64,000 nt of DNA from Candidatus Bathyoplasma sp. NZ (GTDB lineage Bacteria > Bacillota_I > Bacilli_A > MAG-NZ), in NCBI GenBank assembly GCA_013332095.1, contig JABENI010000016.1, positions 1 through 64,000 of the forward strand, given 5' to 3'. Each line of letters starts with the position of its first letter. The first letter of the stretch is position 1. A program made the position numbers. Positions 12,001 to 15,000 of this stretch are shown piece after piece.

Positions 12001-15000
12001 TATTTTCTTTATCATTTTATTTTCCTCCTTATTTTTAAAATACTTAAAATATGTCTTATTTAATTGCTTGTTTAAATGATATTCCATTTCAAAATCTGTC
12101 AATAGAACTTGTCGTTTGAACCAATTCGGCATTTTTGAATTTTTTATCAATTTTAACAGTTATACATAACTTAAATGTTGCAAATTCAGTTAAAATAACT
12201 TTGTTTTCAAACTTCAAAATATCTTCAATTAATTGTAATGTAACATTTAGGCATCGATATCTTTTAGCAATTTTTATAATTTATTATAACAAAAATTCCA
12301 TAATATGGCAATATTAGGTTATTATCTAGAAATTTTATTTAATTTCAACTAAATATGCTATATTTTTCCTTTTAATCCTTTGTCATTATTGCTAATGCCT
12401 TTAGAAAAATCTTCTCTTTTTGATAACTTTCTTACTGTTTTCCTAAAATAAATAGATTAATCTAGATTCAAAAATAATAATGATAAATTATTTTTTATCT
12501 AAATAAAAAAAGCACACGAATTATCGGGTACTTTTCAGAAATTTATTTTAATTATGATAGTCACCTTAGAATACAAGTAATATCTATTTTATAAAATGTA
12601 ATGATTTACAGAAAAGAGAATTCTGCTTCATTTATAAAGATATTAATGAGAAAATGACAAAAACCCACAAACTGGGTTTTTTTATTAAATAGTGTTTTTA
12701 TTACTAAAAATTCATAACTACTAAACTAATCTATTACTTCAAATCTCCCCATCATGCCTCTTTCTTCATGAGAAAGAATATGACAATGATACATAAAAAG
12801 ACCAGTATGTTTAAACATTACTTGTACTTTTACCTTGTGACCTTCTCTTACATACACTGTGTCTTTCCATCCAAAATCTTTTGGATCTACTTTTTCACCA
12901 TCAATTTCTACTATCAAAAATCTTGCATTATGAGGATGAAAAGAATGATGTTTATTTGAAATATTATCAATTTCTAAGTAATAAATTTGATTTTTAGTAA
13001 AAGTTTCATCAATTGTATTCATACTAAATTGTTTTCCATTAATTTGATCATTGTCTAATACAAAAGTATTTGTTGTTGCTTGTCCTGTATATTCTTCATA
13101 CATTAAAATAGGGGCTAAGGTACTTATCATATTTGTAGTAAATGGTTTGTCAAAATCGTCATCAGTATCATCATTTATTTTTAAAGTTAATACTTGTTGT
13201 CCATTAGCAATAATATTAACTTCATCTCCAATTTCTTTTGAAGTTAAATCAATTAAAATTTCATACCTTTCACCAGCTGCGATTTCCATAAAATCTTTTT
13301 CTTGACTATTCTCCAAAAATCCCACATCAGTTGCAATAACATTTATTTTATCATTTGTATCAGTTGAAATATCCATTATTCCATGATTACTACCATTTAA
13401 TAACCTCAACCTAATAACTTCACTTCTAACTTCTTTGTAAGGAATGTAAAAACCATTACTCATTATTGTAAAACCACTAGTAGTAGATTGGTTTGAACCA
13501 TCTCCATCTTCAAACATCATACCCATCATATTACTTCTATTCATCATACCAGTTCCACCCATCATTCCGTGGTGTCCATAGGCTAAATTACCATTTTCAT
13601 CAAATTTCTTTGCTTGTAAAACTAGTGGTATGTCATTAACACCGTAAATATCAGGCAAGTCTAATGAATCACTATATTCATCTTCTATAATTATCATACC
13701 GGCTAAACCTTTATAAGCTTGACTTGCAGTAGTACCTAGTGCATGAGGGTGATACCAAATAGTTGCAGCAGCTTGAGAAATTTCCAGATTATATGTTTTT
13801 TCTTCTCCAGGGTATACTCTAGCATTTGGCTCTGCTGCACCGTCACTCATCCCATTAGTTTCTAAACCATGCCAATGAAGAGTAGTTGCTTCATCCAAGT
13901 TATTCATTAATATTGGGTTAAAAGTATCACCTTTTCTCATTTTGAAAGTCTTCCCTAAATAACCTTGCTCATTATAACTAAGAACATCTGTTTTAAAACC
14001 TTCAACAAACTCAAACTCAGTTTTATCGGCAGTAATTATAAAATCTTCATCGAGTGATGAAACATCTATTAATTCAGGAATAAATAACTCTTCATTATTT
14101 CTTATCATATCGACTGTCTTATTGTTCATCAGGTACATTACTCCAAAAGTCACAACTGCTCCAACAACAACTGAAACAAAAATTAATGCAATTACTTTTA
14201 TACTTTTCATTATCCCCACACCCCTTTTTATTTAATTTTCATTGTTGTTACACAAGTTTGGTCTCCGTGATTTGTTGTAAATTCCTCAGTTGCAGTTTTA
14301 CCATCAAGACTCACAGTGATTTCAAGCACCTTTTCTCTAGGTAACCAAAGATCTAAAAATCCGTTATTTTGTGTTTTAACTTTCTCGTCTACAATTATTG
14401 TTCCACTTTCATCTTTTACCAAAACATCAAATTCCTTATTTTTAATTTCGCCCTCACACCCCGTTGGACTATGTTGAGTTCAACCGTGTGTATATGTTTC
14501 ATAAGGTGCTATTGATAGATAAAATTCATCTGTTGGCATATCGTAATAACTTGTATTACCATCATCACGAATTTCTAAAACTTCATCTGTTGTCGTCGCA
14601 TAATAATCAGATTTCCCAGAACTTAAATATTCTATTTTTCCTTTTATTGTCATTTCTTCGATATTCTTATCTGAACAAGAAACTAAGATAATTGTTGCTG
14701 CACCTAAAATAAATACCCTAAATATTTTTTTCATTTTCACTTTCCCCCACTATTTCAATTCCATTAATTTCTAACTCTTTGATAACTTCATCTAAAGTAT
14801 AAAATATCTCTGTGATACTTCATTACTCACTAATTCAAACTCAGTAATATTTTCATGTTTTAGCATTATTTTTACTGCTTCTTTATCTAAATCATTGATA
14901 ATTATTTTATTAGAATATTCATCCAAATCAATTACTTTTCTAAAGATACTTTTTTTTAAGAATTCCTATTTCGCATTTCCTAAATTATCTATCTTTTGTC

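What a model noticed while it worked through the whole genome (the two positions that open the first line are those of the whole stretch)
14228..14734. CueP copper-chaperone family is an unrecognised selenoprotein family
Gene calls g00941+g00940 are one 168-aa CueP-family lipoprotein (minus strand, upstream of a multicopper oxidase) with an in-frame UGA at codon 85, the position of the redox/copper-binding Cys96 of Salmonella CueP (TH-x-U-xx-HS-x-TGC). The same UGA, with a conserved hairpin behind it, recurs in many Sec-using Bacillota, so CueP is a selenoprotein family.
Evidence so far: Read-through gives a whole CueP. Genome has selA, selB, selD, tRNA-Sec and five other UGA selenoproteins. 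Motif scan of GTDB species genomes: 90 stretches with TGA at this site, 0 with TAA/TAG. 73 of 81 loci read (80 fetched + own) are open on both sides. 77 of 80 relatives share one stem-loop sequence 12 nt behind the UGA, invariant at synonymous sites; 2 more carry a compensatory pair. 34 of 36 such genomes tested have selA over the cut-off. CueP is absent from the 119-family table of PMC13188914 (Table 1 read, calls 58, 62), from deep-Sep text and supplements (59, 197), BSepDB text and supplement (200, 201), Haft 2022 (196); searches 43, 53, 61 found nothing relevant.
(Added by a program. Inside this text positions count along the whole contig: contig position 1 is position 1 of the stretch shown here. 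"Call 12" and the like, gene names such as g00115 and contig names such as C1 are that model's own, and its searches are not shown. The text may have been shortened before it was handed on; [...] marks where a part breaks off. The agent that wrote the report below was given it as the finding of a first reader that could run no searches.)

Follow-up and report, generated by a model that had tools for sequence, protein, structure and literature searches.

The report
Selenocysteine form of copper protein CueP
A gene that looks cut in two by a stop codon likely makes one surface copper-handling protein with the rare amino acid selenocysteine in its copper site; the same stop codon sits at the same place in over a hundred other selenium-using bacteria, and this protein is not in the 2026 selenoprotein catalogue that I read.

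Summary
Observation confirmed. Window 14228-14734 (-) reads through TGA85 into a 168-aa CueP-family lipoprotein (Pfam 2e-42; model matches PDB 4GQZ, TM 0.80). Codon 85 is Salmonella Cys96. TGA is a normal stop in this genome, which has selA, selB, selD, tRNA-Sec and six other UGA genes of selenoprotein type. A scan allowing TGA/TAA/TAG/TGG at this site gave 119 TGA, 1 TGG and 0 TAA/TAG of 120 loci: Bacillales 83, Deltaproteobacteria-type 31, Mollicutes-like 5. In one Bacillales family, all 109 TGA-form genomes have selA, and all 10 selA-less genomes with a whole CueP use Cys. All 83 Bacillales loci share a G-loop hairpin at +19, with two-sided swaps in 13. The family-level Sec reading is near certain (about 0.95). 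This copy is less sure (about 0.85): its hairpin is weak and no better than recoded controls, and no protein or RNA data exist. Likely role: holding copper exported by CopA, beside a multicopper oxidase. CueP is absent from the 119-family table; RefSeq's U annotation and Haft & Tolstoy 2025 could not be checked. This scan reported the same family before on other DNA (four earlier findings).

The parts
14228..14734 (-). cueP-family gene, 168 aa on read-through of TGA85 (an alternative GTG start lies at 14740)
14480..14482 (-). in-frame TGA, codon 85, at the place of Salmonella CueP Cys96; predicted selenocysteine
   Evidence: Cys in 137 of 150 representatives
14450..14469 (-). weak SECIS-like hairpin (+11 to +30 after TGA) with a GGGG run at +18 to +21; keeps 5 of the 7 family pairs in register
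   Evidence: -4.8 kcal; 34% of recoded controls are as stable
14675..14686 (-). lipobox-like LVSC (residues 17-20) after a hydrophobic signal; Cys20 predicted to be lipidated
   Evidence: sequence; Cys in 79 of 151 aligned rows at this column; lipobox pattern recalled, no predictor run
14456..14488 (-). metal/redox motif H83-x-U85-xx-H88-xxxx-C93 (= H94, C96, H99, C104 of Salmonella CueP)
14252..14254 (-). C161 (= Salmonella Cys172), third S/Se ligand
12726..14219 (-). multicopper oxidase, CueO-like below the equivalog cut-off, with an N-terminal hydrophobic segment, all four Cu motifs and a Met-rich insert; likely co-transcribed with cueP
   Evidence: 8-nt gap to the cueP stop
12659..12681 (-). 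terminator-like hairpin after the oxidase gene
15279..17705 (-). copper-translocating P-type ATPase (TIGR01511 over cut-off), two HMA domains
15225..15255 (-). terminator-like hairpin after copA; cueP-oxidase may be a separate transcript
17717..18070 (-). ArsR/SmtB-family metalloregulator upstream of copA

Best explanation
The gene encodes a CueP-family protein with an in-frame UGA at the Cys96-equivalent codon, which is likely read as selenocysteine, giving a predicted membrane-anchored surface lipoprotein that likely binds copper exported by the neighbouring CopA pump. Step 1 (inferred from the standard bacterial pathway): SelB with Sec-tRNA binds the G-loop hairpin about 18 nt behind the UGA and inserts Sec85. 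Step 2 (predicted): the 168-aa product is exported, lipidated at Cys20 and folds as CueP. Step 3 (inferred from Salmonella CueP): His83, Sec85, His88, Cys93 and Cys161 form the copper site. It captures Cu(I) outside the membrane and can be oxidised by Cu(II) to a Sec85-Cys93 selenenylsulfide, damping copper-driven radical chemistry. Step 4 (inferred from gene order only): it works beside the adjacent multicopper oxidase, which would oxidise Cu(I), as buffer or donor. Delivery to SodC or a haem-copper oxidase is unlikely here, because neither was found in the genome. Sec may be favoured because it reacts faster and resists irreversible oxidation where no DsbD/CcdA reductant was found (inference, untested). 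Shown: sequence, family, fold match, site mapping, Sec machinery, TGA specificity and hairpin co-variation in relatives. Not shown: Sec in the protein, copper binding, any partner.
For: Whole-domain hit across the TGA. AlphaFold model pLDDT 92 (U modelled as C); Foldseek top hits are 4GQZ chains, E 1e-14, TM 0.80, rmsd 1.4-1.7 A. The site is Cys in 137 of 150 representatives; the 10 Trp are explained as code-4 gene calls. TRR pattern scan: 119 TGA, 1 TGG, 0 TAA, 0 TAG of 120 loci read; metagenome scan of a narrower pattern: 5 of 5 TGA. 113 of 119 are open on both sides, and 3 of the 6 others are cut by the locus edge. Downstream mismatch by codon position is 0.24/0.16/0.55 in 74 Bacillales genes, so the part after TGA is kept as protein. 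selA is in 46 of 50 TGA-locus genomes tested. Family of G446: 109 of 109 TGA-form genomes have selA; of 21 Cys-only genomes 11 have it and 10 do not. Own phylum: selA in 4 of 5 TGA-form genomes (the miss is 55% complete) and 0 of 24 Cys-form genomes. Bacillales hairpin: 7 pairs standard in 83 of 83; T-A 71 / C-G 12 and A-T 82 / G-C 1; loop GGT at +19 in 81 of 81 distinct sequences versus 2 of 20 Cys forms. This genome's SelD, Prx, ArsC-like and GrdB hairpins have 3-nt G-starting loops at +18 to +22, and FdhA has a G-rich loop in the same range. All six TGA copies found in the 41-genome relatives search (own copy included) stop at this same codon. Only 1 of 78 single-base routes to a stop in this gene falls on codon 85. 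Site functions come from passages of PMC3935622; CueP-CueO interplay and SodC delivery from passages of PMC13201067. No Sod_Cu, COX1 or DsbD/CcdA match in the 97%-complete genome.
Against: This copy's hairpin is weak. Its minimum-energy fold (-5.4 kcal) has an AAC loop without G. The G-loop alternative is -4.8 kcal, misses the -7.5 kcal bound of the bSECIS model, and 34% of 600 synonymous recodings do as well. GrdA in this genome has no such hairpin either. The copy sits on a long branch with no close relative (best identity 48%, to a Cys form), and broken genes lie nearby. One isolate genome (G459, Metabacillus malikii record) has the TGA form with no selA/selB/selD over cut-off. The copper neighbourhood is not conserved: CopA-like genes in 14 and oxidases in 2 of the CueP loci searched. 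For most of the 109 family genomes the '1 TGA' was counted by the tool and not read codon by codon. Kin are not independent, so the Fisher p-values overstate. There is no protein, selenium-labelling or RNA evidence.
Confidence: 0.85

Rival explanations
1. The family is a real Sec family, but this copy is decaying: the SECIS has eroded, UGA acts mostly as a stop, and only an 84-aa lipoprotein stub is made.
For: Own hairpin no better than controls. Pro90 and Glu94 break two stem pairs. A broken remnant lies upstream and a split MFS gene nearby. Decayed TGA copies exist elsewhere (L067, L143, L150, L190).
Against: The frame is open for 83 codons after TGA, and all invariant residues are kept (H88, C93, E96, G125, W130, C161). 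5 of 7 pairs and the G run stay in register. The codons in the hairpin are rare GC-rich ones (third-rarest of 155 six-codon windows). GrdA, a verified selenoprotein type, also lacks a clear hairpin here.
Confidence: 0.1
2. A plain Cys-to-stop nonsense mutation or sequencing error in an ordinary Cys CueP, unrelated to selenium.
For: TGY to TGA is one base. The nearest rows in the tree include Cys forms.
Against: Only 1 of 78 single-base routes to a stop hits this codon. The same TGA is in 119 of 120 scanned loci with no TAA/TAG. TGA tracks selA.
Confidence: 0.03
3. UGA is read as Trp (genetic code 4, as in Mycoplasmatales) or as Cys by a recoding tRNA, not as Sec.
For: The genome is small, 29% GC, and has Mollicutes-labelled relatives. 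Database proteins show W here.
Against: TGA ends 83 of 786 long ORFs. The only UCA tRNA called is tRNA-Sec, beside selAB, and tRNA-Trp is CCA. The W proteins are near-identical to TGA loci (P0192 vs L103), and W also stands at the Sec site in 114 of 120 GrdA hits. True TGG was seen once in 120 loci, in a paralogue. UGA-as-Cys was not tested directly.
Confidence: 0.02

Closest known systems
Salmonella enterica Typhimurium CueP (PDB 4GQZ; PF21172; NF038095)
   Same: Fold (TM 0.80, 36% identity); His94/Cys96/His99/Cys104/Cys172 site mapped one to one; association with CopA and a multicopper oxidase.
   Different: Sec predicted in place of Cys96. Predicted lipoprotein, not soluble periplasmic. Below the NF038095 cut-off (123 vs 195 bits). 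ArsR/SmtB regulator adjacent instead of CueR control. No SodC or DsbD/CcdA match in the genome.
Gram-positive CueP family (NF038094; Corynebacterium diphtheriae CueP, PMC4546943 passages)
   Same: Family member over cut-off (156 vs 60 bits); CueP outside the membrane of a monoderm cell.
   Different: Known members have Cys. The reducing partner described there (DsbA kept reduced by a CcdA-like protein) has no DsbD/CcdA counterpart found here; DsbA itself was not searched.
Catalogued metal-handling bacterial selenoproteins: UxxU metal-binding protein NF041115, CopZ-like 2Fe-2S cd10141, SO_0444 Cu/Zn efflux NF033936, P-type ATPase UxxC, SaoX/SaoB/SaoL, MbdU (Table 1 of PMC13188914)
   Same: Sec replaces a metal-binding Cys; mostly predicted from Cys/Sec pairs; SaoX is also a lipoprotein.
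   Different: None is of the CueP fold or has an H-x-U-xx-H-xxxx-C motif. P0001 hits no selenoprotein model in NCBIfam at E 0.1.

Membership tests
CueP family (NF038094 / PF21172) | Profile score over the curated cut-off | tested here: met
   156 vs 60 bits; 144 vs 27 bits
CueP family (NF038094 / PF21172) | CueP fold | tested here: met
   Predicted model vs 4GQZ: TM 0.80, E 1e-14; next fold E 6e-3
CueP family (NF038094 / PF21172) | Two His and three Cys site residues | tested here: met
   H83, H88, C93, C161 present; the third Cys position is the TGA
CueP family (NF038094 / PF21172) | Export signal | tested here: inconclusive
   Basic-hydrophobic N-terminus with LVSC seen in the sequence; no signal predictor run
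CueP family (NF038094 / PF21172) | Binds copper, reduces Cu(II), confers copper tolerance | not testable with these tools
   Needs biochemistry
Enterobacterial CueP proper (NF038095) | Score over the 195-bit cut-off | tested here: not met
   123 bits
Bacterial selenoprotein | In-frame UGA aligned to a conserved Cys of homologues | tested here: met
   Cys in 137 of 150; invariant in the 110-row alignment, from which W rows were left out
Bacterial selenoprotein | selA, selB, selD and tRNA-Sec in the genome | tested here: met
Bacterial selenoprotein | UGA not reassigned genome-wide | tested here: met
   TGA ends 83 of 786 long ORFs
Bacterial selenoprotein | TGA-bearing homologues confined to Sec-using genomes | tested here: met
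   109 of 109 in one family; 46 of 50 across groups, with 3 incomplete MAGs and 1 isolate exception
Bacterial selenoprotein | bSECIS in relatives: 3-9 nt loop with G in the first two places, 16-37 nt behind UGA, stem of 4 pairs or more | tested here: met
   81 of 81 distinct Bacillales, 24 of 31 Delta-type, 5 of 5 Mollicutes-like with stems of 5 or more pairs (model)
Bacterial selenoprotein | bSECIS in this copy, including the -7.5 kcal bound | tested here: inconclusive
   G-loop and spacing fit in a sub-optimal fold; stem interrupted; energy -4.8 misses the bound; GrdA and Prx of this genome miss it too
Bacterial selenoprotein | Sec shown in the protein | not testable with these tools
   Needs 75Se labelling or mass spectrometry
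Catalogued selenoprotein families (119 in PMC13188914) | Listed by name, domain id or motif | tested here: not met
   Table 1 read whole; 'CueP' occurs 0 times

The most novel reading that the evidence does not exclude
CueP is a widespread, uncatalogued selenoprotein: it is in about 43% (109 of 251) of one large Bacillales family sample and was recoded Cys-to-Sec more than once at the same copper ligand, with unrelated SECIS hairpins in Bacillota and Deltaproteobacteria. It places a copper-selenolate or selenenylsulfide switch on the cell surface, so selenium supply would set copper tolerance. In this genome it would feed or shield the adjacent multicopper oxidase without a DsbD-type reductant.
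Probability: 0.4. Interest if true: 0.75.

Novelty: new variant of a known kind. Interest (0 to 1): 0.62.

Why it matters
It adds a family to the bacterial selenoproteome, and a common one: 109 of 251 genomes sampled in one Bacillales family, many of them culturable isolates. There the gene is deposited as a 91-99 aa 'hypothetical protein'. Sec sits on a residue with a solved structure and measured copper chemistry, and natural Sec and Cys orthologues exist in close relatives (for example L048 and L171). That makes the long-standing question of what Sec gains over Cys at a metal site directly testable. It also links selenium use to surface copper defence and shows Sec use in a small-genome Mollicutes-like lineage.

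Tried and rejected
Code 4 or Trp reading: rejected. The search for homologous proteins with this protein scored nothing; the search for related loci in metagenomes found no close relative. No sequencing run was listed for the locus, which is no evidence either way. RefSeq annotation with U: inconclusive. No U occurs in 120 top hits for a Bacillales read-through, but the control GrdA search also gave 0 U in 120, so this collection cannot show U. Plasmid searches gave only distant hits (under 60% identity), nearly all annotated as CueP family; the unannotated Staphylococcus equorum hit has TGT and a broken 5' part. A conserved operon around the Sec form: not found; neighbours are heterogeneous (71 of 147 nearest neighbours were scanned). 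One origin of the Sec form: rejected as a clade, but the trees are poorly resolved (132 columns, quick searches), unrooted, and cannot tell gain from loss. Promoter scan: 50 sites vs 44.9 expected, uninformative. No complex prediction of CueP with the oxidase was obtained, so the partner question stays open. Haft & Tolstoy 2025 (PMC12013261) is not held and no preprint was listed. The BSepDB supplement is cut within Table S1, so its family list S2 was not seen. bioRxiv supplements of Haft & Gwadz were not seen. One search (2 of 3 terms) listed only selenium+UGA papers in its top 15 and adds little.
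Full report
Observation. Window 14228-14734 on the minus strand is one frame of 168 codons with a single in-frame TGA at codon 85. Read through, it is a CueP-family protein over residues 36-166: PF21172 E 2e-42, NF038094 156 bits against a cut-off of 60, NF038095 123 bits against 195. 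It aligns to Salmonella CueP (4GQZ) with the TGA on the Cys of THPC. PMC3935622 (passages read) numbers that peptide 93-THPCF-97 and names His94, Cys96, His99, Cys104 and Cys172 as the copper site. These map to H83, U85, H88, C93 and C161. A model folded with Cys at 85 has pLDDT 92 and matches 4GQZ at TM 0.80, rmsd 1.4-1.7 A.

The genome. G000 is 1.82 Mb, 29% GC, 97% complete. TGA ends 83 of 786 ORFs of 250 codons or more, tRNA-Trp is CCA, and the one UCA tRNA is called tRNA-Sec, so UGA is not reassigned. selA, selB and selD are over cut-off and adjacent on C29. Six other genes read through a TGA at a selenoprotein-type site: SelD, FdhA, GrdA, GrdB and an ArsC/Spx-like protein, all over an NCBIfam cut-off, and a peroxiredoxin, which is below its cut-offs.

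The site in relatives. Among 150 representative proteins the site is Cys in 137, Trp in 10 and a gap in 3. The Trp forms are best read as code-4 gene calls. P0192 is the L103 gene with W at its TGA, and W also fills the Sec site in 114 of 120 GrdA hits. They read 119 TGA, 1 TGG, 0 TAA and 0 TAG. By record title I sorted the 119 into 83 Bacillales-type, 31 Deltaproteobacteria/Desulfobacterota-type and 5 Mollicutes-like. 113 are open on both sides, 3 are cut by the locus edge and 3 are broken. The TGG copy is a paralogue on the same contig as a TGA copy and keeps most of the hairpin. A narrower metagenome pattern gave 5 of 5 TGA. After the TGA, third positions differ most (0.24/0.16/0.55, 74 genes), as in coding DNA.

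Link to the Sec machinery. selA was over cut-off in 46 of 50 genomes chosen from the TGA loci. Of the four misses, one MAG has selB and selD, one is 55% complete, one MAG carries a 5'-decayed copy, and one isolate (G459) has no selA, selB or selD over cut-off. That isolate shares 5.5 kb at 95% identity with another genus around cueP, which suggests a transferred island. In a 251-genome sample of the family of G446, 133 have CueP: 109 with one TGA in the match, 21 whole without a stop (all 21 read as TGT/TGC) and 3 fragments that I left out. All 109 have selA; of the 21, 11 have it and 10 do not. selA is common in that family (19 of 20 CueP-less genomes), so the signal lies in the 10 selA-less genomes all using Cys. 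I did not read the codon in most of the 109. In the window's own phylum, 27 of 400 genomes have CueP. The TGA form (G000, G003, G004, G033, G006) goes with selA in 4 of 5, and the Cys form in 0 of 24. In 301 genomes of the phylum of G426, 4 have CueP, 3 with TGA. Kin are not independent.

The hairpin. The bSECIS model (PMC13188914 section 5) asks for a 3-9 nt loop with G in the first two places, 16-37 nt behind the UGA. All 83 Bacillales loci form seven standard pairs round a GGT loop at +19. The +13:+27 pair is T-A in 71 and C-G in 12, both changes synonymous; +16:+24 is A-T in 82 and G-C in 1. Only 2 of 20 Cys-form Bacillales genes have this as their best hairpin, and their codons vary freely. 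Stems of six or more pairs occur in 81 of 81 distinct sequences against 39% of recoded controls. The Delta-type loci use another hairpin, with a GTC/GTA loop at +23 (24 of 31 with stems of six or more). Mollicutes-like relatives have GGA/GGT/GGG loops at +19. On nine rows picked by hand for variety, 94% of cells pair and 4 of 7 pairs change on both sides; this is illustration, not a test.

This copy's hairpin. It is the weak point. It keeps a GGG at +19 and 5 of the 7 pairs, but the best fold (-5.4 kcal) has an AAC loop. The G-loop fold is -4.8 kcal, and 34% of 600 recodings are as stable. Four of the genome's other Sec genes have hairpins of -9 to -13 kcal; the Prx one is -4.6 and GrdA has none. 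For read-through of this copy: the open frame, every invariant residue kept, rare GC-rich codons in the hairpin, and the fact that only 1 of 78 single-base routes to a stop hits codon 85.

Evolution. With the Sec/Cys column masked, TGA forms are scattered. Bacillales Sec and Cys forms interleave, the Delta-type loci form their own group, and this copy is unplaced on a long branch. On 46 chosen rows there are at least 11 changes and one clade is rejected (p-AU 2e-47). Different hairpins in different phyla fit separate origins, but the trees are unrooted and short.

Context and mechanism. Gene order is arsR, copA (TIGR01511), a terminator-like hairpin, a broken remnant, cueP, a multicopper oxidase with all four Cu motifs and a Met-rich insert, then a terminator-like hairpin. 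In Salmonella, CueP is proposed to take copper from CopA and deliver it to SodC, and it matters for copper resistance when CueO is absent (PMC13201067 passages). Cu(II) drives a Cys96-Cys104 disulfide, and C96S abolishes protection from Fenton chemistry. DsbC or DsbA keeps it reduced (PMC4546943 passages). This genome has no match to Sod_Cu, COX1 or DsbD/CcdA. I therefore infer a surface Cu(I) buffer and redox sink working with CopA and the oxidase, with Sec85 as ligand or as the selenenylsulfide partner of Cys93. That Sec is more reactive and resists irreversible oxidation is recalled general knowledge. Among the other CueP loci searched, CopA-like genes lie in 14 and oxidases in 2; most Bacillales copies stand among unrelated genes, so the copper context is suggestive, not general.

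Novelty. Full-text searches for CueP with selenocysteine and with selenoprotein each returned one irrelevant paper (search listings). Table 1 of PMC13188914, 119 families, was read whole and has no CueP. Term searches found no CueP in deep-Sep text and four supplements, BSepDB main text, SelCysML text or the Haft & Gwadz preprint text. NCBIfam of June 2026 names NF038094 without '(seleno)', which it uses for other families. GenBank and UniRef hold the truncated N-terminal piece, mostly as a hypothetical protein; 9 of 10 truncated sequences looked up were in the collection. Not seen: Haft & Tolstoy 2025 itself (its families appear through the review's table), BSepDB Table S2, and RefSeq records with U. 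Four earlier AI notes of this scan reached the same reading on other genomes; they are not independent evidence.

Verdict. Real, and very probably a selenoprotein form of a known copper protein: about 0.95 for the family and about 0.85 for this copy. New variant of a known kind; interest 0.62.

Noticed in passing
window 14745-15130 (-): Broken reading-frame pieces between copA and cueP, across A-runs; no Pfam hit and no second copy in the genome. Likely a gene remnant; identity unknown.
   Followed up: partly
window 6022-11259, 19848-21162, 21821-24373 (-): The copper cluster (27-29% GC) lies among 22-24% GC defence-like genes: a 1745-aa NACHT/AAA protein, an Abi_2-like gene overlapping a DncV-like nucleotidyltransferase, and a PLD-SNF2 helicase. 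It looks like a defence or mobile island.
   Followed up: partly
window 18727-19695 (-): An MFS transporter gene in at least two pieces.
   Followed up: no
G000:C34:119169 (+), L184:243-593: Spx/MgsR-ArsC family protein (TIGR01617 over cut-off) with TGA at codon 10 (motif T-U-S-S-V) and an 11-pair hairpin with a GTC loop at +19. The catalogue lists arsenate reductase forms with UxxS and UxxC, not UxxV.
   Followed up: partly
G000:C29:10400 (-): A second, truncated copy of the selD 5' end with its TGA and hairpin, about 1.7 kb upstream of selD's own TGA.
   Followed up: no
G000:C44:72973 (-), L183: GrdA of this genome has no bSECIS-type hairpin within 42 nt of its UGA (-1.6 kcal).
   Followed up: partly
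G000, G002, G003, G004, G033, G436: selA over cut-off in several small-genome Mollicutes-like or Erysipelotrichia-labelled genomes. A paper search for selenocysteine with Izemoplasmatales found nothing.
   Followed up: partly
L156 and L068 (NZ_JBHZRC010000009.1): A genome with four CueP copies, one with TGG (Trp) in place of TGA and most of the hairpin kept: a probable Sec-to-Trp mutation.
   Followed up: partly
L077 (G459) and L103: 5.5 kb at 95% identity between records of two genera, carrying TGA-form cueP next to lgt; the G459 genome has no sel genes over cut-off.
   Followed up: partly
L052, L114 (scanned); L056, L067, L076, L107 (same sequence cluster): ResA/TlpA-like thiol-disulfide oxidoreductase directly beside TGA-form cueP in several loci, a candidate reductant.
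   Followed up: no
protein collection: Code-4 gene calls put W at Sec sites (114 of 120 GrdA hits). A Cys/Trp-only column in metagenomic protein alignments is a usable flag for hidden selenoproteins.
   Followed up: partly
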